Shown: positions 17,765 to 61,416 of the stretch, one piece after another
Layout of the letters: each line of letters begins with the position of its first letter
Position numbering within the stretch: the first letter of the stretch is position 1
Source of the DNA: Candidatus Omnitrophota bacterium
Lineage (GTDB): Bacteria > Omnitrophota > Gorgyraeia > Gorgyraeales > Gorgyraeaceae
Assembly (NCBI GenBank): GCA_042571405.1
Contig: JBHPHU010000005.1
Coordinates: 1-61,706 of the forward strand
DNA: 61,706 bases
Direction of reading: 5' to 3'
The notes under the pieces: generated by a model
The model's input: the letters and a program-made list of their open reading frames with translations, nothing else
Told to the model about the DNA's origin: nothing
Databases searched by the model: none
Made by a program: the position numbers and the translations under genes

Positions 17765-17819
17765 ACCTCTCCGACCTCGTAGGTCGACCTACGAGGTCGA
17801 CCTACGAGGTCGGAGAGGT
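17765..17819. repeat. Palindrome family A, three 13-bp units (55 bp, 26-bp stem)
   Basis: ACCTCTCC-GACCTCGTAGGTC-GACCTACGAGGTC-GACCTACGAGGTC-GGAGAGGT. Confidence 0.9.
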
Positions 17820-35473: not shown

Positions 35474-37039
35474 TTATAACCCGTATTTTAGTCTTGGCAT
35501 TAATTTTAGGGCTGCGTCTTTTACTAATTTTATATCTAATAGTTGTATCCAATGCCTATTGTCAGGAGGGAGGGAGGCTATATAGTTATTAATGTCTCCG
35601 GAGGCCAGCCTAAAAAGTATGTCTTTTTCAGAATCATATACATTAATGTAATCACCTATCGCTATTTTTAGATCGTATTTTGTATCTATCAAAAACCCGT
35701 TCATATATCTGTGTCTTTTGTTTAAAGTCCCCGCGAAAATATCTTTATTCAGAGCCAGCTTAAATACAGGGTCTACTACCCAGTCTTCAGAAAAAAATTC
35801 TATATGCCCGATCGGGCCGTATTTACTGTATTGATTGCCGGACACATAAATAACCTTGTTGTCTTGGTATTCATTGAGATCCTGGTTGTTTTTTATGTTT
35901 GTTATAATTCTCTGCTGATGCGCGTTCCAGGTTTTCCAGTGGCCTGAAATGCCCAGGATCGTAAAGATTATCAGCGCGAAGACCAGGGTCTTTATTTTTT
36001 TTGACGCAGGCATTAACACAATAAGGTACGTAAATAGTAATGACCCATAGATAGTAGTTCTATTGCCAAGATTAAAGGCCAACTGTGGATAACGGCCGGT
36101 AACAGCAAACATCAAGAAAGAAGAAAATACCAGGACCATAAGACTTATAATGAGTTTTTTACCCATTCGACCTCGTAGGTCGACCTCGTAGGTCGACCTA
36201 CGAGGTCGAATGGGGTCTAATTTATAAAAAATTACTACAAGGGTAAGGCCTATTGTTAATGATATCAATGATATCTGAGAGAAAGAATAATATATTTTTA
36301 GCCACATCGAAGGTCCGCACATGGAGTCTATAAAGGTTAGGACTTGTAATATAAATTGCTTGATCACGATAGAGACGCTTATTTCTTCGATTATTCTGGG
36401 ACTGCCCATGCGAAACAGTATATTTATAGGGATGAAATACAGCGCATAAATAATGTTAGGAATAATTATAACAGCGCCTTTTTTAAATTCCTTATTTAAC
36501 GCGAATAAAACGAATAGCCCTAGTGCGATCGGGGGAGTGCCGTAAGATAGAAACGAGGCGATCAAGGCTGATAAAAAGGCCGGGATCAGTTTATTGCGAT
36601 GCGCCAAATAAAAAGCGAATAGATACAGGCAAAATGATATGCTGATGTATTGTATCATGAATGAATATACCGTAGAGTCATGTGAAGGAAAGAAGATAAA
36701 CAAAAAAGATGCCCAGAGGGCAGTGTATCTATTTAGAAAGATGTTAAAAAATCCGATCACTAAACAAAAAGATAAAATAGTGTAAAAGATTTTCAGGATA
36801 TTAACAAGGAGTGGATTGTCTATTCGAAACCAATAATACCATATGTAATGGCTAAAATGTTCTATTGGCGTCTCAATAAAATAGCCGTCGGGAATAAGCA
36901 CATCCTTGATATCTTTATTCTCGAGTTTAACCATTACGGCAAAATCATCCGCGCTAAGCCCCGTATTTATCAAAAGATAAGCTATCAGAATAAGACATGA
37001 AAGAAGCAGTAGATTTTCGACCTTAAAGACTTTTTTCAT
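35474..37039 (-). CDS. Polytopic membrane protein, GT-C-like sugar transferase
   Basis: ADD after TM1, about 11 TMs and a soluble C-terminal domain; last gene of an amino-sugar cassette. Confidence 0.55.
   Translation of the reverse strand: MKKVFKVENLLLLSCLILIAYLLINTGLSADDFAVMVKLENKDIKDVLIPDGYFIETPIEHFSHYIWYYWFRIDNPLLVNILKIFYTILSFCLVIGFFNIFLNRYTALWASFLFIFFPSHDSTVYSFMIQYISISFCLYLFAFYLAHRNKLIPAFLSALIASFLSYGTPPIALGLFVLFALNKEFKKGAVIIIPNIIYALYFIPINILFRMGSPRIIEEISVSIVIKQFILQVLTFIDSMCGPSMWLKIYYSFSQISLISLTIGLTLVVIFYKLDPIRPRRSTYEVDLRGRMGKKLIISLMVLVFSSFLMFAVTGRYPQLAFNLGNRTTIYGSLLFTYLIVLMPASKKIKTLVFALIIFTILGISGHWKTWNAHQQRIITNIKNNQDLNEYQDNKVIYVSGNQYSKYGPIGHIEFFSEDWVVDPVFKLALNKDIFAGTLNKRHRYMNGFLIDTKYDLKIAIGDYINVYDSEKDILFRLASGDINNYIASLPPDNRHWIQLLDIKLVKDAALKLMPRLKYGL
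36162..36214. repeat. Palindrome family A, three units, in frame in the membrane-protein gene
   Basis: The 39-bp core is the exact reverse complement of 17773-17811; encodes RPRRSTYEVDLRGR. Confidence 0.9.
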
Positions 37040-49778: not shown

Positions 49779-52274
49779 ATGAGCGAATTTTATCCTTTTA
49801 AGAAAATCGAGAAGAAGTGGCAGAAGGCATGGGAGAGGCAGGGGCTTTTTAAGATGGACCCCGAGTCTTCCAAGGATAAGTATTATTGCCTGATGATGTT
49901 TCCGTATCCGTCTGCCTCATTGCATGTAGGACATGGCAGGAACTATATTATAGGAGATGTTGTAGCGCGTTACAAGATCATGCATAAGCTTAATGTCCTG
50001 GCGCCAATGGGCTGGGACGCGTTTGGTCTTCCCGCAGAAAATGCTGCTATAAAAAGCGGCATCCACCCCAAGATTTCTACATTAAATAATATAAAGACAA
50101 TGAAGAAACAGCTCAATGCCTGGGGCGTGGGGTATGACTGGGATAGAGAGATCGCTTCATGTATGCCTGATTATTACAAATGGACACAGTGGATATTTTT
50201 AGAGCTCTATAAAAAGGGCCTTGCCTATAAGAAAAAAGCTCAGGTCAATTGGTGCCCCTCTTGTCAGACAGTGCTTGCAAATGAGCAGGTAGTGGATGGC
50301 GCGTGCGAAAGGTGTTCCGCTGAAGTTGAGCTGCGTAGTCTCGAACAATGGTTTTTCAAGATAACTGATTACGCGCAGAGGCTTCTGGATGATTTGAGTC
50401 TGTTAAAGGATTGGCCGGAGCGGGTAAGGATCATGCAGAAGAACTGGATCGGCAGGAGCGAGGGCGTTGAGATAGATTTTAAGCTCGCAGATGATGGTCA
50501 AGGCGAAACCTCCGCCAGCTTAGCTGGCGGAGGTTTCGCCTTGACGTGTTTTACCACCAGGGTGGATACAATCTATGGCGCTACATATATGGTGCTTGCC
50601 GCGGAACATCCAATGGTTGAGGAGCTTATAAAAGGTTCTGATAAAGAAAATGATATAAAAAAATTCATCGCAGACGTTAAAAAGGAAAGTTTTACGGACA
50701 GGGTTTCAGCTACTGCTGAGAAAAAAGGCGTATTTACAGGCAGATTTGTCATAAACCCCGTGAATGGTAAAAAGATCCCGCTGTGGATTTCGAATTATGT
50801 GCTGATGGAATATGGTACAGGCGCGGTAATGGCAGTGCCTGCGCATGATGAGAGAGACTTTGAGTTTGCGAAAAAGTATGACTTAGAGATAGTGGTTGTG
50901 ATCGATAATCCAAAAGAGCGCCTTGATGCAAAGAGCATGAAACAGGCTTTTGTAGAAGAAGGGGTTATGGTGAATTCCAGCCAATTCAATGGCCTGCCAA
51001 GTCTTGAGGCAATTGAAAAAATCTCAGATTATATGGAAAAAGAAAAGATAGGAAGAAGAAAGATCCATTATAAACTGCGAGACTGGCTTATCTCCAGGCA
51101 AAGGTATTGGGGCGCGCCCATACCTATGGTGTATTGTGAAAAATGCGGCATACAGCCGGTAGATGAAAAAGATCTTCCGGTTCTTTTGCCTGAAAAGGTT
51201 AAGTTTAAACCTCGTGGTGAATCGCCATTAAAAGATGCGGAGAGTTTTGTCAATACAAAATGCCCTAAATGTAAATCCAAAGCTCGACGAGAAATCGACA
51301 CAATGGATACATTCGTGGATTCTAGCTGGTATTTTCTGAGATTCTTATCTCCAAAAAACAACAAAAATCCTTTTGATAAAGAATTAGTCAATAAGTGGCT
51401 TCCTGTAGATCAATATATCGGAGGCGTGGAACATGCGATTCTGCATTTAATGTATTCAAGATTTATCGTAAAGGTGCTTCATGACTTGGGTCACGTGGGT
51501 TTTAAAGAACCATTCGCCAAACTCTTTACACAGGGGATGATCGTAAAAGACGGCGCAAAGATGTCCAAGTCAAAAGGCAATGTCGTGAGTCCTGACGCGC
51601 TTATAGAGAAATACGGCGCGGACACAGTGAGGTTTTACACATTGTTTATCGGCCCGCCTGAAAAAGACGCGGAGTGGAATGATCGCGGCGTCGAAGGCGC
51701 GTGGAGGTTTCTTAACCGAGTGTGGCGACTTGTGGAACGGGATACGGGGAACGGGATACGGGGAACGGGGGATGGAAATAAAATTTCATCTCTTAAGCGA
51801 AAGACACATTTTACTATTAAAAAAGTTACAGAAGATATAGAAGGCGCTTTTCATTTCAATACAGCATTAAGCGCGATAATGGAATTAGTAAATGAGATTT
51901 ATTCTATCCCGAATCCCGAATCCCGAATCCCGAATCCCGAATTAAAAAAAGCCATAGAAACAGTCGTGATCCTCCTTGCGCCTTTTGTGCCGCATATTGC
52001 TGAGGAGATGTGGGAGATATTAGGGAATAAAAAGAGCGTATTTGAAGCAGACTGGCCGGGATATGACGAGGCTGCGCTTGTTCAGGATAGGATCACCATG
52101 CCGGTTCAGGTAAATGGCAGGGTGCGCTCAAGGATAGAAGTTGGATCAAGCGCGGATGAAGAAGAGATAAAAAAGATTGTCATGGAAGATCCCCTGGTTA
52201 GTAAATGGACCCAAGGCAAACCACCCAAGAAAATTATTGTTGTAAAAGGAAGATTAGTAAATCTCGTGGTATAA
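49779..52274 (+). CDS. leuS: Leucine-tRNA ligase
   Basis: MFPYPS..LHVGH, GTGAVMAVPAHDERD, DWLISRQRYWG and KMSKSKGN motifs. Confidence 0.98.
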   Translation: MSEFYPFKKIEKKWQKAWERQGLFKMDPESSKDKYYCLMMFPYPSASLHVGHGRNYIIGDVVARYKIMHKLNVLAPMGWDAFGLPAENAAIKSGIHPKISTLNNIKTMKKQLNAWGVGYDWDREIASCMPDYYKWTQWIFLELYKKGLAYKKKAQVNWCPSCQTVLANEQVVDGACERCSAEVELRSLEQWFFKITDYAQRLLDDLSLLKDWPERVRIMQKNWIGRSEGVEIDFKLADDGQGETSASLAGGGFALTCFTTRVDTIYGATYMVLAAEHPMVEELIKGSDKENDIKKFIADVKKESFTDRVSATAEKKGVFTGRFVINPVNGKKIPLWISNYVLMEYGTGAVMAVPAHDERDFEFAKKYDLEIVVVIDNPKERLDAKSMKQAFVEEGVMVNSSQFNGLPSLEAIEKISDYMEKEKIGRRKIHYKLRDWLISRQRYWGAPIPMVYCEKCGIQPVDEKDLPVLLPEKVKFKPRGESPLKDAESFVNTKCPKCKSKARREIDTMDTFVDSSWYFLRFLSPKNNKNPFDKELVNKWLPVDQYIGGVEHAILHLMYSRFIVKVLHDLGHVGFKEPFAKLFTQGMIVKDGAKMSKSKGNVVSPDALIEKYGADTVRFYTLFIGPPEKDAEWNDRGVEGAWRFLNRVWRLVERDTGNGIRGTGDGNKISSLKRKTHFTIKKVTEDIEGAFHFNTALSAIMELVNEIYSIPNPESRIPNPELKKAIETVVILLAPFVPHIAEEMWEILGNKKSVFEADWPGYDEAALVQDRITMPVQVNGRVRSRIEVGSSADEEEIKKIVMEDPLVSKWTQGKPPKKIIVVKGRLVNLVV
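50497..50545. repeat. Perfect 24-bp-arm palindrome in frame in leuS
   Basis: GTCAAGGCGAAACCTCCGCCAGCT-T-AGCTGGCGGAGGTTTCGCCTTGAC. Confidence 0.95.
51734..51942. repeat. Pair of mutually complementary 7-bp tandem arrays in leuS
   Basis: (GGAACGG/GATACGG)x5 at 51734-51768 and (ATCCCGA)x5 at 51906-51940. Confidence 0.88.
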
Positions 52275-57288: not shown

Positions 57289-58797
57289 ATGCATAAAAGA
57301 CCCCTTGCAGTCATTTGTATTTTCTTCATAATAGGGATTGTTTTAGCGAAGTTCCTGCCCGATTTTGTTAAATTTTCTCATATATTTGCAATAACTTTAA
57401 TCTTCATTTCATCGTCTTTACTTCTCAATCTGCCCTACAGTGGGTTGGAGGCAGGAAGAGAGAAAGCAGCGAATGCTCTTTTACTCTTATCAGTTATTTC
57501 CTTTGCCACACTTCTGTATGTAAATTCCAATATTTTTCCGACTAATCATATTAGCCATTTTTTGGGAGAAGAAAAACTCAAAGCCAACATCGCCGGTATC
57601 ATAAAAAGCCCGGCACTGACGCGGAAGCCGTATTATGGCAAGATTAATTCTACGTATATGTTTGAAGTAGAGGCGATAAAGGCTGAAGGCTCTAGGCTCA
57701 AGGCTGGAGGGGAGTGGTTGGGCGTAACTGGTTTATCGCAGATCAGAATACAAACTGAAAAAGATTATCAATATGGCGATAGACTGTTAGTAAGAGGTAC
57801 GATAAGGAGGCCTGCCAGTGATGCTTCTCGACTTCGCTCGAAGAATATTGAAGGGAATAATGTTCGAGCGAAGTCGAGAACATTTAATTATAGGGAATTT
57901 TTAGAAAGACAAAATATATTCGCCCTTATAAATACGAAAGAAAATAATATTACTGTCCTATCTCATGATTACAAATCAAATCCTATCCTGAAATACACAT
58001 ATCTTCTCCGCGAAAAACTTAAAAATCAGATCCTCGAAAAGATGCCTCTTGAAAGCGGCGCATTCCTGAGGGCGATTCTCCTCGGCGATCGCTCTGAACT
58101 CCCAAAACATATTCAAACCTCCTTTAAAAACTCCGGCACAGTACATGTTTTGGCAATAAGTGGACTGCATATTGGGATCATTGCGCTTGTGTTCCTTTAT
58201 CTCTTCAGGCTCTTGAGGTTCAGAAGAGAATTCTCTTATATATTGACTATAATATTTTTGATATTTTTTGCTATACTTACGCTCTCAAGGCCGTCGGTTG
58301 TAAGGGCAGTAGCGATGGCTGCTATTTTTCTTACAGGTATGCTCTTAGGGAAGAAGGTGGATGTGTATAATTCTTTAGGAGCAGCAGCGCTTTTTATATT
58401 GATCAGGAATCCCAAGGATATTTCTAATATCGGATTCCAGCTATCTTTTGCGGCAGTACTTTTTATATTATTCTTTACGCCCAAATTCATGAGGTTTGTG
58501 AAAGAGGGGACTAATTTCTATATAAAAAGATATTTGTATACGCCTTTGGCAGTCTCAATGTCAGCATGGCTAGGCACATTTAGTTTGGTATGGTATTACT
58601 TTAAGATCGTGACGCCTATTGCTATTATTGCCAATCTTTTTATAATCCCTGCCATTTTTGCATTATTGATAGGCGGCTTGGGGTTTCTCTTGTTGGGCTG
58701 GGCGCCATTTATAGGAGATTTTCTGGCAGGCCTTAATGATTTTCTATGCCAGGCGATCTTTTTCCTCGCAAGTTTCTTTGCTAAGCTTGCATTTTAG
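57289..58797 (+). CDS. comEC: ComEC/Rec2 competence channel without a C-terminal metallo-beta-lactamase domain
   Basis: FNYREFL, AILLGDR, HVLAISGLH, PSVVRA and GFQLSF motifs. Confidence 0.9.
   Translation: MHKRPLAVICIFFIIGIVLAKFLPDFVKFSHIFAITLIFISSSLLLNLPYSGLEAGREKAANALLLLSVISFATLLYVNSNIFPTNHISHFLGEEKLKANIAGIIKSPALTRKPYYGKINSTYMFEVEAIKAEGSRLKAGGEWLGVTGLSQIRIQTEKDYQYGDRLLVRGTIRRPASDASRLRSKNIEGNNVRAKSRTFNYREFLERQNIFALINTKENNITVLSHDYKSNPILKYTYLLREKLKNQILEKMPLESGAFLRAILLGDRSELPKHIQTSFKNSGTVHVLAISGLHIGIIALVFLYLFRLLRFRREFSYILTIIFLIFFAILTLSRPSVVRAVAMAAIFLTGMLLGKKVDVYNSLGAAALFILIRNPKDISNIGFQLSFAAVLFILFFTPKFMRFVKEGTNFYIKRYLYTPLAVSMSAWLGTFSLVWYYFKIVTPIAIIANLFIIPAIFALLIGGLGFLLLGWAPFIGDFLAGLNDFLCQAIFFLASFFAKLAF
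57680..57710 (+). repeat. 7-bp tandem array (AGGCTNN)x4 in frame in comEC
   Basis: AGGCTGA AGGCTCT AGGCTCA AGGCTGG AGG; encodes KAEGSRLKAGG. Confidence 0.75.
57825..57880. repeat. Perfect 18-bp inverted repeat with a 20-nt spacer, in frame in comEC
   Basis: TTCTCGACTTCGCTCGAA / TTCGAGCGAAGTCGAGAA. Confidence 0.92.
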
Positions 58798-58836: not shown

Positions 58837-59784
58837 ATGAAGAAACAAGGTATTATAGCTTTAATATTGCTTATATATTATATATCAGCGGCTCCGGCGT
58901 ATGCTTTCTGGGTGTGGACTCCTGAAAGCGGTAAATGGGAGAACCCTAAGTACGCGGCAAAGGATACGCCTGAAGAGCAGATGGAGTATGCCAAGGGTTT
59001 TTATGAGGCCAAGAATTACAAGCTGGCCCTGAGGGAGTTCAAGAAATTGATCAAGTATTATCCGCTAGCCAAAGAAGCGCCATCCGCTCAATATTATATA
59101 GGCCGTATCATGGAAGACCTGGCTAAGCCGTACGCAGCATTCAAGGCGTATCAAAAGGTAATAGACCTTTATCCTTATACAGATTTTGTGGATGAGGTAA
59201 TTGAGAGGGAATTCAAGATAGGCAATATGTTTCTATCAGGTGAGAAGGTGAGTGTCCTGGGACCTTTAAAGATGCCAGCTAAAGATAAGGCAATAGAGAT
59301 ATTCAAGGCAGTGGCTGAGACTTCTCCTTATGGAAAGTATGCAGACCAGGCAGTGTTTAAAACAGGCTTAGCCTATAAAGACATAGCTGATTATGACAGC
59401 GCTATAATGAGCTTCAAAGAAGTCATAGATAAATATCCTGATTCAGAGCTTGTTGATACAGCGAGGTATAAGCTGGCAGAGTGTTCAAAATTATTGTCGT
59501 TGAAACCTGATTATGATCAGACACCTACTATAGCTGCCAGGGAGGAATTCGAGGAGTTCATAGAAAAGCACCCTGATAGTGAGATATCAGAAGATGCCAA
59601 GGAGATAGTTATTAAACTTAAGGATAGAGAGGCAGAGAATGCGTATAAGGTAGCAGAATTTTATGAGTCAAGGCGCATGAATGAGAGCGCAGTTATATAT
59701 TATGAGGACATAATCAGGAATTATCCAGGCACACAATGGGCCAAAAAAGCTCAGGAGCGACTAGGTGAAATCAAAAAGAAGTAG
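58837..59784 (+). CDS. bamD: BamD-like TPR outer-membrane assembly factor
   Basis: Signal peptide, TPRs ending YP.S/YP.T and YDQT.T..A..EF..F...HPDS; adjacent to lptE. Confidence 0.75.
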   Translation: MKKQGIIALILLIYYISAAPAYAFWVWTPESGKWENPKYAAKDTPEEQMEYAKGFYEAKNYKLALREFKKLIKYYPLAKEAPSAQYYIGRIMEDLAKPYAAFKAYQKVIDLYPYTDFVDEVIEREFKIGNMFLSGEKVSVLGPLKMPAKDKAIEIFKAVAETSPYGKYADQAVFKTGLAYKDIADYDSAIMSFKEVIDKYPDSELVDTARYKLAECSKLLSLKPDYDQTPTIAAREEFEEFIEKHPDSEISEDAKEIVIKLKDREAENAYKVAEFYESRRMNESAVIYYEDIIRNYPGTQWAKKAQERLGEIKKK

Positions 59785-60331
59785 TTTGCGACTATCCGCT
59801 ATCCGCTATCCACTATCCGCTATAATGTGCGTTATAATATTATCCGGTTGTGGTTATACTACAGGTGTTGTTCTTCCCAATAACATAAAAACAATCCAGG
59901 TCGCTATATTCAAAAACAAGATTGACATAACAAAAGAAGTGAGCGCAAAAGATAAATATGAGGTTTACAGGCCAAATCTCGAGGTGGATCTAAGGGACGC
60001 GATAATAGAGAGGGTTTTTCTGGATGGTAATTTAAAGGTAGCCTCAGGGAGCATTGCCAATGCTATTCTCTCAGGCGAGATCACGCAATACAGAAAGGAT
60101 CCTTTAAGATATCAAAATGAAGAGGTGCGTGAATACAGGATAAGCCTGGTATGTGATTTTAAATTATTAGATTCCGGAAACGGAGAGGTGTTAATAGAAG
60201 AAGACGGCATTACAGGAGATACGACCTATTTCACCACTGGTACGCTTCAGAAGAGCGAGACATCTGCCTTAACCAATGCAATGCAGGATCTTGCCAGAAG
60301 AATAGTTAATAGAATAGTTGAGAGCTGGTAA
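59765..60331 (+). CDS. lptE: LPS assembly lipoprotein LptE
   Basis: Lipobox LSGCGY, LP..IKTI and DLARRIV; upstream of holA. Confidence 0.8.
   Translation: MKSKRSSLRLSAIRYPLSAIMCVIILSGCGYTTGVVLPNNIKTIQVAIFKNKIDITKEVSAKDKYEVYRPNLEVDLRDAIIERVFLDGNLKVASGSIANAILSGEITQYRKDPLRYQNEEVREYRISLVCDFKLLDSGNGEVLIEEDGITGDTTYFTTGTLQKSETSALTNAMQDLARRIVNRIVESW
59792..59822 (+). repeat. 7-bp tandem array (CTATCCG)x4 in the lptE signal peptide
   Basis: CTATCCG CTATCCG CTATCCA CTATCCG CTA; encodes LSAIRYPLSA. Confidence 0.85.
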
Positions 60332-60342
60332 TAACAATATAA

Positions 60343-60450
60343 TTCCAAATGTCAAATGACAAAATCCAAATGAATAATTTAAATCCAAATAATTAAATTA
60401 TTTGTCATTGGGTGATTCATTTGTCATTTGGGATTTGTCATTTGGGATTT
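60343..60450. repeat. Inverted pair of 7-bp arrays (NNCAAAT / ATTTGNN) between lptE and holA
   Basis: TCCAAAT GTCAAAT GACAAAA TCCAAAT ... ATTTGTC ATTTGGG ATTTGTC ATTTGGG. Confidence 0.85.
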
Positions 60451-60456
60451 TTTACG

Positions 60457-61416
60457 ATGCCTACCAAAATATTCCCCGTATATCTTTTTCTTGGCGAAGA
60501 GGGTTTTTTAAAGCAAGAGGCGGTTGAGAACCTGAAGTCAACTCTTTTGGACAAAAATACCCAGGACCTTAATTACAATATATTTCATGCCAAGGACAAG
60601 GATTTTAATGTCAGCAGTATGCTTGATAGCCTTGATACCATGCCCTTTTTATCAAAGAGAAGACTAGTGGTATTAAAGGAGGCTGATTCTGTAACCGCAT
60701 CTGTAAAGACATCGATCCTTTCTTATCTGGAGAGCCCAAGAGAAAGTTCTGTTTTTGTTATTGAAAGCGATTTGCCTGTTATAAAGGGCGAGTTTCTTTT
60801 AAAGGCCTCAAAGGCCGCGCACCTGGTCTATCACAGGAAGCTGACAGATCCAGGTATTAATGCCTGGCTTGTTAAAAAGGCAGGCCTTGCTGAAAAAAAG
60901 ATTTCCATAGAGGCTATTAATGCGATAAAAGAAAACCTGCCGAATGATCTCAGGGTGATCTCTTCCAATATGGATAGCATAATTCTCTATGTTGGCAAGA
61001 GACCATTGATAAAAAAACAGGATATTGATAATATTATAGGAGCGAGTCCTTCGCATACAGCCTTTGATCTTATAGATACTATAGGAGAGAAGGATGCTAA
61101 AAAAGCCCTTTGCATATTTTCTACTCTTAAGAGAGACAAAAAAAGGGAGACAGAGCTTTTGGGACTTTTGGCATGGAACGCGAGGATGCTTTTAAGGATA
61201 AAGGAGCTTTTCAAGATCAAGAATAATATGGAGATGCGGCAGGATCTTGGCCTGAGCCCAAGGGCATTTGAGAGGATCCTGCGTCACGCGTCTATGCTGA
61301 AGAAAAAAGAGATCCTTGTGCTGCTGGACGAGATACTCCGTTCAGACCTTGCTATAAAGACAGGCGCTTCTCCTGCGGCAGTAATAGAGAGACTTATAGT
61401 TAAGATGTGCGCCTAG
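60457..61416 (+). CDS. holA: DNA polymerase III delta subunit
   Basis: PVYLFLGEE, TMPFLSKRRLVV, F.LID.I and DLAIKTG motifs; next to lptE and rpsT. Confidence 0.9.
   Translation: MPTKIFPVYLFLGEEGFLKQEAVENLKSTLLDKNTQDLNYNIFHAKDKDFNVSSMLDSLDTMPFLSKRRLVVLKEADSVTASVKTSILSYLESPRESSVFVIESDLPVIKGEFLLKASKAAHLVYHRKLTDPGINAWLVKKAGLAEKKISIEAINAIKENLPNDLRVISSNMDSIILYVGKRPLIKKQDIDNIIGASPSHTAFDLIDTIGEKDAKKALCIFSTLKRDKKRETELLGLLAWNARMLLRIKELFKIKNNMEMRQDLGLSPRAFERILRHASMLKKKEILVLLDEILRSDLAIKTGASPAAVIERLIVKMCA

What the first reader, a model, noticed from the sequence alone, without database searches (positions are those of the whole stretch)
51734..51942. Complementary heptamer arrays bracket 137 bp of leuS and are both translated
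Seen: an upstream CGGGAT/CGGGGA-type array and a downstream ATCCCGA array, five units each, able to pair as a long-range stem. They encode ERDTGNGIRGTG and IPNPESRIPNPE in two loops of the anticodon-binding helical domain. Two independent slippage events would not be expected to be complementary. Inference: the paired arrays are a functional unit (RNA stem or recombination substrate) imposed on coding sequence.
Basis: partly seen in the sequence, partly recalled or inferred. Interest (0 to 1): 0.7.

Follow-up and report, generated by a model that had tools for sequence, protein, structure and literature searches.

The report
Paired seven-base repeats inside leuS
Two mutually complementary runs of a 7-base repeat really are translated inside the leucyl-tRNA synthetase gene of an uncultured Omnitrophota bacterium. 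They are one local case of a genome-wide hairpin-forming repeat class that settles in tolerant protein loops, not a device specific to this gene.

Summary
A G-rich array (51734-51770, two alternating heptads) and a perfect C-rich array (51906-51942) lie in frame in leuS. They are 75% complementary over 32 nt and are predicted to pair (RNA z -4.35).

They are not special to leuS. The genome holds 125 heptamer arrays, and 61 of 80 outside ORFs have an inverted partner within 400 nt (controls 6%). EPSP synthase, a radical-SAM gene and a FabD-like gene carry the same kind of in-frame complementary pair.

Across 136 distinct leuS relatives, 15 have arrays in both loops, each lineage with its own unit: 4 inverted, 3 direct, 8 unrelated. 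The closest relative has neither array. Array-bearing loops are no longer than array-free ones. The upstream array shares 24 identical bases with an intergenic hairpin arm elsewhere in the genome.

My reading is dispersed hairpin-forming heptamer repeats written into tolerant loops by short templated copying. The stem would be a by-product, not a conserved leuS element.

The closest published kind is the convergent GGGAATC pairs of Xanthomonas. This scan has reported the same repeat class before on other Omnitrophota DNA. I rate it a new variant of a known kind, of moderate interest.

The parts
49779..52274 (+). leuS (leucyl-tRNA synthetase), intact 831-aa ORF that holds both arrays
   Evidence: Searches give the ORF and its translation. 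One search gives Pfam tRNA-synt_1_2, tRNA-synt_1 and Anticodon_1. One search matches T. thermophilus LeuRS 1h3n at E 1e-257.
51734..51770 (+). Upstream G-rich array of two alternating heptads (a 14-mer, 2.6 copies). It encodes residues 652-664 (VERDTGNGIRGTG): the end of one helix and the loop after it.
   Evidence: TRF. (peptide); in the model, helix 35-57 is followed by residues with pLDDT below 50 at 57-60 and 62-65 (fragment residue 1 = residue 601); 24 nt are identical to G000:C17:4817.
51771..51905 (+). 135 nt of conserved LeuRS coding sequence between the arrays (KRKTHFTIKKVTEDIEGAFHFNTALSAIMELVNEIY region). It is present in all relatives, so it is not cargo of an element.
   Evidence: alignments with invariant columns H77, T79-K81, F91-A96, M101, E102, N105, Y108.
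51906..51942 (+). Downstream C-rich array, a perfect heptad with 5.3 copies. It encodes residues 710-722 (IPNPESRIPNPEL): the loop between two helices. Its last unit overlaps the conserved P-E-L codons.
   Evidence: TRF, 100% matches; loop 109-119, pLDDT below 50 at 113-117; boundary codons compared across relatives.
51738..51939 (.). Long-range inverted repeat formed by the two arrays (32-nt arms, 75% complementary)
   Evidence: pair I1. (predicted pairing, z -4.35 for RNA and -3.76 for DNA).
51739..51763 (+). Canonical G-quadruplex motif (four or more G3+ tracts) on the sense strand, inside the upstream array
   Evidence: regex scan: 21 motifs in the genome, 14 of them in heptamer arrays.
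51915..51938 (-). Canonical G-quadruplex motif on the template strand, inside the downstream array

Best explanation
The two arrays belong to a dispersed, hairpin-forming heptamer-repeat class that pervades this Omnitrophota genome and its family.

SHOWN
- Arrays of about 30 nt occur all over the genome. Between genes they nearly always come as array plus inverted array, and these hairpins fill the gaps between neighbouring genes.
- Many arrays at different loci share the same order of variant units.
- The same two LeuRS loops carry arrays in many genera, each with its own unit.
- Arrays close together in one gene are related more often than distant arrays of the same genome, in either orientation.
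- Array-bearing loops are not longer than array-free ones.

INFERRED
- The arrays are written over pre-existing variable loops by short-patch templated copying. This could be ectopic gene conversion or replication template switching, using other arrays as template, including the neighbouring one on either strand.
- Purifying selection then keeps only copies that are in frame, free of stop codons in all three phases, and placed in disordered surface loops of the helical anticodon-binding domain.
- On this view the complementarity of the leuS pair is a footprint of how such arrays are copied and homogenised. The predicted mRNA or ssDNA stem and the opposite-strand G-quadruplex motifs are by-products with at most minor effects on leuS expression.
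For: Genome-wide class:
- Period 7 accounts for 199 of 728 TRF rows.
- There are 125 merged arrays, 80 of them outside crude ORFs.

Hairpin habit:
- 61 of 80 arrays outside ORFs and 10 of 45 inside ORFs have an inverted partner within 400 nt. Controls are 48 of 800 and 18 of 450 windows.
- The intergenic hairpins sit within a few nt of the flanking stop and start codons.

Dispersal:
- 66 of 125 arrays share 20 nt or more exactly with an array at another locus, and 54 of these matches hold variant units.
- The upstream leuS array shares 24 nt with the hairpin arm at C17:4817.

Other genes with in-frame complementary pairs:
- EPSP synthase, arrays 199 nt apart.
- A radical-SAM gene, 42 nt apart.
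- An Acyl_transf_1 (FabD-like) gene, 17 nt apart.

Relatives:
- The same two loops carry arrays with different units.
- Of 15 loci with arrays in both loops, 4 are inverted and 3 direct, against a cross-locus null of 3.3% each. One locus (L021) is a 24-score, near-perfect inverted copy.
- Near pairs are related in 6 of 11 cases, against 6 of 34 for far pairs of the same genome.

No net insertion:
- Loop medians are 66 vs 64.5 nt and 42 vs 42 nt.
- In the array-free relatives the aroA stretches are the same 21 aa long, except L107's stretch A (14 aa) and the 1-aa-longer stretch B in four relatives.

Loops: low-confidence inter-helix loops in the model.
Against: - No copying event was observed. 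No near-identical strain was found (best metagenome hit 75% identical) and no sequencing run was listed, so templated copying is an inference.
- The downstream unit has no match of 16 nt or more elsewhere in the genome, and the two arms are only 75% complementary. A recent arm-to-arm copy is therefore excluded for this pair.
- Most arrays inside genes are unpaired: 35 of 45.
- Arrays are anchored on conserved boundary codons. That also fits in-place birth from native seeds followed by concerted evolution.
- Gene calls are crude longest-ORF calls.
- Related lineages are not independent, so the counts across relatives overstate the significance.
Confidence: 0.5

Rival explanations
1. Selected structure. 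The paired arrays are kept complementary because the long-range hairpin does something useful. It could act in the mRNA (stability, ribosome pacing, protection of a single-stranded repeat from a nuclease or binding protein) or in single-stranded DNA.
For: - Stable predicted stem.
- In this genome all 3 close in-gene pairs that score >=10 are inverted, and 76% of arrays between genes are hairpins.
- Four leuS lineages keep complementarity with four different units, which resembles covariation.
- In the leuS stem the mismatches are 3 G.T and 7 A.A, with no A.C.
Against: - The closest relative lacks both arrays.
- 8 of 15 array-bearing lineages have unrelated arrays and 3 of 15 have direct copies.
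- Near pairs in relatives split 3 inverted to 3 direct.
- Hairpins between co-directional genes show no clear G.U bias (43 G.T vs 34 A.C mismatches).
- Translating ribosomes would unwind a stem whose arms lie 135 nt apart inside an ORF (general knowledge).
Confidence: 0.17
2. Coincidence. Two independent arrays of an abundant repeat family happened to land, or arise by slippage, in the two most tolerant loops in opposite orientation.
For: - GGG-type units are common among in-gene arrays of this genome.
- The leuS pair only just reaches the score threshold (10), and the two units differ.
- Both loops are hot spots for arrays in general: 32 and 26 of 136 loci.
Against: - The within-genome null for such a match is 3.3%.
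- 3 of 5 close in-gene pairs reach it.
- Near pairs are related more often than far pairs: 6 of 11 against 6 of 34.
- 7 of 15 leuS lineages have related arrays, against about 7% for cross-locus pairs.
Confidence: 0.1
3. G-quadruplex elements. The arrays are G4 or i-motif forming heptamer repeats, as in Xanthomonas and Nostoc. They would act through four-stranded structures on opposite strands, not through a stem.
For: - Both arrays are canonical G4 motifs, one on each strand, and 14 of the genome's 21 such motifs lie in heptamer arrays.
- Rehm et al. 2015 (passages read) showed G4 formation by GGGAATC-type repeats in vitro and a preference for four units.
Against: - Most array families here (GGCTCAA, AAGCCAC, TAGCGGA and AAATGAC types) have no G3 tracts, yet they behave the same way in pairing, placement in loops and turnover.
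- Relatives carry non-G4 units in the same leuS loops.
Confidence: 0.06
4. Contingency (phase-variation) locus. Slippage of a 7-nt unit switches leuS in and out of frame.
For: The unit length is not a multiple of three, and the downstream array is perfect.
Against: - leuS is a single-copy essential gene. Only one full-length match was found in the genome, and the weaker matches are paralogous synthetases.
- The arrays lie in the 3' third of the gene.
- Relatives differ only by multiples of 3 nt.
Confidence: 0.02

Closest known systems
G-rich heptameric repeats of Xanthomonas (GGGAATC) and Nostoc (GGGGA(C/T)T), Rehm et al. 2015, PMC4692102 (abstract and passages read)
   Same: - 7-nt unit with a G3+ tract.
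- Mode of about four units.
- Dispersed over the genome.
- 70 and 75 cases per Xanthomonas genome of two repeat sites in convergent orientation on opposite strands, able to form stem-loops.
- Under-represented in coding DNA.
   Different: - There the repeats are mostly intergenic (intragenic 11% and 7%) and a single unit dominates each genome.
- Here many unit families coexist.
- The leuS pair is translated in frame in an essential gene and brackets 135 nt of conserved coding sequence.
- The same loops carry other units in related genera.
Other prokaryotic heptamer repeats: TAACTGA direct repeats of Beggiatoaceae, Cyanobacteria and Bacteroidetes (MacGregor 2015, PMC4679880, abstract and outline read); heptanucleotide long SSRs of Mrazek et al. 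2007 and the three tandemly repeated heptanucleotides of Calothrix PCC7601, both known to me only as cited in Rehm et al.
   Same: Tandem 7-nt units over-represented in some genomes, with no known mechanism.
   Different: - TAACTGA repeats are almost all direct, sit just upstream of start codons, and are proposed as protein-binding sites.
- In the parts I read there was no inverted pairing and no in-frame occupation of protein loops.
REP/REPIN-RAYT systems (Bertels and Rainey 2011, PMC3116915, seen only in the search listing; the rest recalled)
   Same: Short dispersed repeats that occur as inverted doublets forming hairpins between genes. The genome encodes Y1 transposase-like genes (6 PF01797 matches).
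   Different: Each REP is itself an imperfect palindrome. A heptamer array is a direct repeat with no internal palindrome. No link between the Y1 genes and these arrays was shown. REPs are extragenic.
Rickettsia palindromic elements inserted in frame in protein genes (Ogata et al. 2000; recalled, not read here)
   Same: Selfish hairpin-forming repeats translated as extra surface-loop residues in housekeeping proteins.
   Different: An RPE is one 100-150-bp element inserted as a block that lengthens the protein. Here there are two separate arrays, no net lengthening, and conserved coding sequence between the arms.

Membership tests
Heptameric G-rich repeats with convergent pairs (Rehm et al. 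2015 type) | Tandem array of a 7-nt unit | tested here: met
   period 7 with 5.3 copies, twice. The upstream array is two alternating heptads.
Heptameric G-rich repeats with convergent pairs (Rehm et al. 2015 type) | A G3+ tract in each unit and at least four units, giving a G4 motif | tested here: met
   G4 motif at 51739-51763 (+) and 51915-51938 (-).
Heptameric G-rich repeats with convergent pairs (Rehm et al. 2015 type) | Two sites close together on opposite strands (inverted pair) | tested here: met
   32-nt arms, 75% complementary. The spacing of 135-138 nt lies inside an ORF. I did not read what spacing the paper allows.
Heptameric G-rich repeats with convergent pairs (Rehm et al. 2015 type) | Mainly intergenic, under-represented in coding DNA | tested here: met
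   Genome-wide, 45 of 125 arrays lie in crude ORFs that cover 92% of the genome. This copy is one of the intragenic minority.
Heptameric G-rich repeats with convergent pairs (Rehm et al. 2015 type) | G4 actually forms | not testable with these tools
   Needs CD or NMR on oligonucleotides.
REP/REPIN-RAYT | Each repeat unit is a short imperfect palindrome | tested here: not met
   The arrays are direct heptad repeats. Only array plus partner is palindromic.
REP/REPIN-RAYT | A cognate Y1 (RAYT) transposase flanked by the same repeats | tested here: inconclusive
   There are 6 PF01797 matches in the genome. One lies next to a different 14-mer array. None was examined next to GGG-type heptads.
In-frame palindromic insertions (RPE-like) | One block insertion that lengthens the host protein | tested here: not met
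   Array-bearing loops are not longer, and the sequence between the arms is conserved LeuRS.
In-frame palindromic insertions (RPE-like) | Translated as a surface loop of a housekeeping protein | tested here: met
Phase-variable contingency SSR | Copy-number changes that shift the frame of a dispensable, usually surface-related gene | tested here: not met
   The gene is the essential leuS. Loop lengths in all 136 distinct relatives are multiples of 3. Population variation could not be tested.
Conserved cis-regulatory mRNA stem of leuS | Present and base-paired across orthologues, with compensatory change | tested here: not met
   Absent in the closest relative. Only 4 of 15 array-bearing lineages are complementary, and 93 of 136 loci have no array in either loop.

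The most novel reading that the evidence does not exclude
Omnitrophota (and perhaps other phyla) have an undescribed short-patch, templated sequence-writing process. It could be driven by replication template switching at hairpin-prone heptad arrays or by a dedicated enzyme. It overwrites about 30 nt of DNA with heptad-periodic sequence at constant length, at fixed tolerant sites that include loops of essential genes. It couples neighbouring sites, so that the two arms of a future hairpin arise and co-evolve even across 135-200 nt of conserved coding sequence.
Probability: 0.2. Interest if true: 0.8.

Novelty: new variant of a known kind. Interest (0 to 1): 0.45.

Why it matters
Heptamer repeats are a long-noted class of bacterial simple repeats that remains unexplained. 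Here they show three things together:
- They are shared between loci, so they are not born independently at each site.
- They sit in essential enzymes at fixed loops without lengthening them.
- Neighbouring arrays are coupled.

If the coupling reflects templated copying, these genomes offer a natural record of short-range template switching and of how non-coding selfish sequence becomes protein sequence. For annotation, it warns that low-complexity loops such as GSRLKAQ, QPRASSLEP or RDTGYGI in Omnitrophota proteins are repeat-derived and not functional motifs.

Tried and rejected
- Read-level copy-number variation: the look-up of sequencing runs listed no run for 51400-52270 (none was listed, which is not the same as none exists).
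- Cluster look-up for near-identical LeuRS variants: the query could not be made because the shared database was switched off.
- Near-identical strains: the metagenome scan gave at best 75% identity and the species-representative scan 79%. Gain, loss and copy-number steps could therefore not be timed within a species.
- G.U bias test for selection at the RNA level: inconclusive (43 G.T vs 34 A.C in hairpins between co-directional genes). Ungapped arm alignments add noise.
- Extension of the inverted repeat inward beyond the arrays: the fold pairs GGAUGGAAAU-type sequence with the conserved NEIY codons. I rejected this as evidence of an inverted duplication, because the NKI codons on the loop-1 side are shared with a relative (L005) that has different arrays.
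- Frameshift compensation between the two arrays: rejected, because the 135 nt between them encode conserved LeuRS residues in the normal frame.
- Single hairpin element inserted as a block: rejected for the same reason.
- Mrazek et al. 2007: not held under the id I tried, so it is cited only as quoted by Rehm et al.
- One paper reading failed on a term that was too long and was not repeated.
- Literature searches for a description of these repeats in Omnitrophota, or of in-frame complementary heptamer pairs, found none. That covers only the held open-access library.
Full report
OBSERVATION

The window is contig C5 of a 1.156-Mb draft genome with 60 contigs and 40.8% G+C, about 60% complete. 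The ORF 49779-52274 (+) encodes an intact 831-aa leucyl-tRNA synthetase. The HIGH-type and KMSKS motifs are visible in the translation. It has the Pfam editing, catalytic and Anticodon_1 domains and matches T. thermophilus LeuRS at E 1e-257.

- 51734-51770 is 2.6 perfect copies of a 14-mer made of two alternating heptads. Read as a 7-mer it is 5.3 copies at 73% matches.
- 51906-51942 is 5.3 perfect copies of one heptad.

They form 32-nt arms that are 75% complementary. The 246-nt stretch around them folds with the arrays paired: RNA -72.2 kcal/mol, z -4.35; DNA z -3.76.

An AlphaFold model of residues 601-831 was built on 20 relatives and has mean pLDDT 76.9. It puts array 1 at the end of one helix and in the following low-confidence loop. 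It puts array 2 in the loop between the third and fourth helices of the same bundle.

THE GENOME-WIDE PICTURE

Period 7 dominates the tandem repeats of this genome: 199 of 728 TRF rows. A fixed-stringency detector finds 109 arrays at period 7, against 13 at period 8 and 5 at period 9.

Merging period-7 and period-14 rows gives 125 arrays. Of these, 45 lie in crude longest-ORF gene calls and 80 outside them, although those ORFs cover 92% of the genome.

Outside ORFs, the array plus an inverted copy is the rule.
- 61 of 80 have an inverted match (score >=10) within 400 nt, and 14 of 80 have a direct one.
- Random 800-nt windows reach that score in 48 of 800 trials.
- These hairpins sit within a few bases of the stop codon of one gene and the start codon of the next.

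Inside ORFs, 10 of 45 arrays have an inverted partner (controls 18 of 450). Among G+C-rich arrays it is 5 of 34. So most in-gene arrays are single.

The arrays are dispersed copies, not local inventions. 66 of 125 share at least 20 identical bases with an array at another locus, and 54 of those matches contain variant units in the same order. The upstream leuS array shares 24 such bases with one arm of an intergenic hairpin at C17:4817. The downstream unit has no match of 16 nt or more elsewhere.

OTHER GENES WITH THE SAME ARCHITECTURE

In ORFs of at least 150 aa there are 12 same-ORF array pairs. I set aside four of them (three at C15:20752-20894 and one at C8:38637-38723), because they are A+T-rich intergenic-type elements overlapped by crude ORFs.

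Of the remaining five pairs that lie 200 nt or less apart:
- Three are inverted at score >=10: an Acyl_transf_1/FabD-like gene (17 nt apart), leuS, and EPSP synthase (199 nt apart).
- One is weakly inverted: a radical-SAM gene (42 nt apart, score 7).
- One is unrelated.

Three pairs more than 400 nt apart are all unrelated. The null from 1941 different-ORF pairs is 3.3% inverted and 4.3% direct. Gene identities come from Pfam.

In EPSP synthase the 199 nt between the arms encode conserved sequence. In the array-free relatives these two stretches are the same 21 aa long, except that one (L107) has a 14-aa stretch A and four have a stretch B one residue longer.

RELATIVES

All 31 related genomes searched have leuS. 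Record titles of the nearest species genomes read Candidatus Omnitrophota; some are labelled Planctomycetia.

Within the genus:
- G002 (90% identical LeuRS) has neither array, and its loops are 27 and 21 nt shorter.
- G001 has, in both loops and in direct orientation, the same composite of a heptad array interrupted by a small hairpin.

Other genera carry other units in the same two loops. Arrays start right after the conserved R-L-V codons and end in the conserved P/L-E/Q-L codons.

I pooled the relatives with one metagenome scan and one species-genome scan. Of 180 loci hit, 158 were parsed, 22 were not, and 136 were distinct.
- 15 have period-7 signal in both loops, 28 in one loop, and 93 in neither.
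- Of the 15, 4 are inverted at score >=10 (this window, L005, L007, L021), 3 are direct (L003, L014, L195) and 8 are unrelated.
- Loops from different loci reach that score in 3.3% of 210 pairs in each orientation.

L021 is a near-perfect inverted copy that keeps the order of its variant units.

A within-genome control used the leuS and aroA loci of the same genomes. Arrays 300 nt or less apart are related in 6 of 11 pairs (3 inverted, 3 direct). Far pairs of the same genome are related in 6 of 34.

Array-bearing loops are not longer than array-free ones: loop 1 median 66 vs 64.5 nt, loop 2 42 vs 42 nt.

INTERPRETATION

But the evidence points away from a leuS-specific functional unit.
- The closest relative lacks the arrays.
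- Most lineages have unrelated arrays or none.
- Direct copies are about as common as inverted ones at this gene.
- The same thing happens in unrelated genes.

Three findings argue that the arrays are written over existing variable loops by short templated copying from other arrays, including the neighbour:
- Variant-bearing identity with a distant hairpin arm.
- Constant loop length.
- A perfect 14-nt periodicity that in-frame (+21 or +42) slippage cannot produce.

Selection then keeps only in-frame, stop-free copies in disordered loops. This step is inferred; no copying event was seen.

A test for RNA-level selection, G.U tolerance on the transcribed strand, was inconclusive (43 vs 34).

Both arrays are also canonical G4 motifs on opposite strands, and 14 of the genome's 21 such motifs lie in heptamer arrays. 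However, most array families here lack G tracts, so G4 formation cannot be the unifying property.

COMPARISON WITH WHAT IS KNOWN

The closest published kind is the G-rich heptamer repeat of Xanthomonas and Nostoc. Rehm et al. 2015 report, in the passages I read:
- 70 and 75 convergent pairs on opposite strands per Xanthomonas genome.
- A mode of four units.
- Few intragenic copies.

The TAACTGA repeats of Beggiatoaceae are direct and lie upstream of start codons (abstract). REP/REPIN and Rickettsia RPE elements behave similarly but fail defining features here: there is no palindrome within the unit and no block insertion.

Four searches of the held library found no description of in-frame complementary heptamer pairs or of these repeats in Omnitrophota.

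Earlier notes of this scan had already reported heptamer-repeat hairpins between and inside genes of other Omnitrophota genomes, and a heptamer array in ileS of this genome. My results agree with them and add four points: the constant-length result, the sharing between loci, the mix of direct and inverted copies at one gene, and the EPSP synthase parallel.

VERDICT

The feature is real and non-random. It is best read as a local case of a lineage-wide repeat class, a new variant of a known kind, with an unexplained origin that deserves population-level data.

Noticed in passing
window 17772-17812 and 36167-36209: Tandem arrays of a 13-nt unit that is itself a palindrome. The two sites are reverse complements of each other, 18 kb apart. 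The 13-mer occurs 12 times on each strand genome-wide. One fills a 68-nt gap between genes. The other falls inside a crude minus-strand ORF call (35474-37039).
   Followed up: partly
window 57679-57705, 59792-59823, 60417-60450: Three more heptamer arrays in the same window: an AAGGCTC-type array inside ORF 57289-58797, a CTATCCG array at the start of ORF 59765-60331, and a TCATTTG/ATTTGGG array at the start of ORF 60412-61416.
   Followed up: partly
G000:C6:25648-26886 (L101), G000:C6:32189-33838 (L102), G000:C10:8173-9135 (L103): EPSP synthase, a radical-SAM protein and an Acyl_transf_1 (FabD-like) protein each carry an in-frame pair of complementary heptamer arrays. In EPSP synthase the arrays replace 21-aa stretches of unchanged length, and the second array ends in the conserved Glu-Pro codons.
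   Followed up: yes
L003, L004, L014, L016, L075 (leuS loops) and L121 (aroA): In relatives, small hairpins of the form C-run ... G-run followed by CAGGC sit inside heptamer arrays just before an AAG-starting unit. Their lengths are mostly multiples of 3 (L016's 19-nt hairpin stays in frame only with two heptads, 33 nt). The same composite can occupy both loops of one gene in direct orientation.
   Followed up: partly
G000:C9:35389-35417 and C9:35594-35926 (L130): A 14-mer array (GAGAGAGTAGGGAC type) lies about 100-170 nt upstream of one of six Y1 transposase (PF01797) matches in the genome. This is a possible REP-RAYT pair distinct from the heptamer arrays.
   Followed up: no
G000:C17:4817-4903 (L104): An intergenic hairpin between two minus-strand genes. 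Its left arm is identical over 24 nt to the upstream leuS array, including the alternation of the two heptads.
   Followed up: yes
L195 (record titled Nitrospinota) and L067, L041, L042, L075 (48-53% identical LeuRS): Heptamer arrays in the same LeuRS loops also occur in much more distant lineages, some labelled as other phyla. The habit is therefore not confined to one Omnitrophota family.
   Followed up: partly
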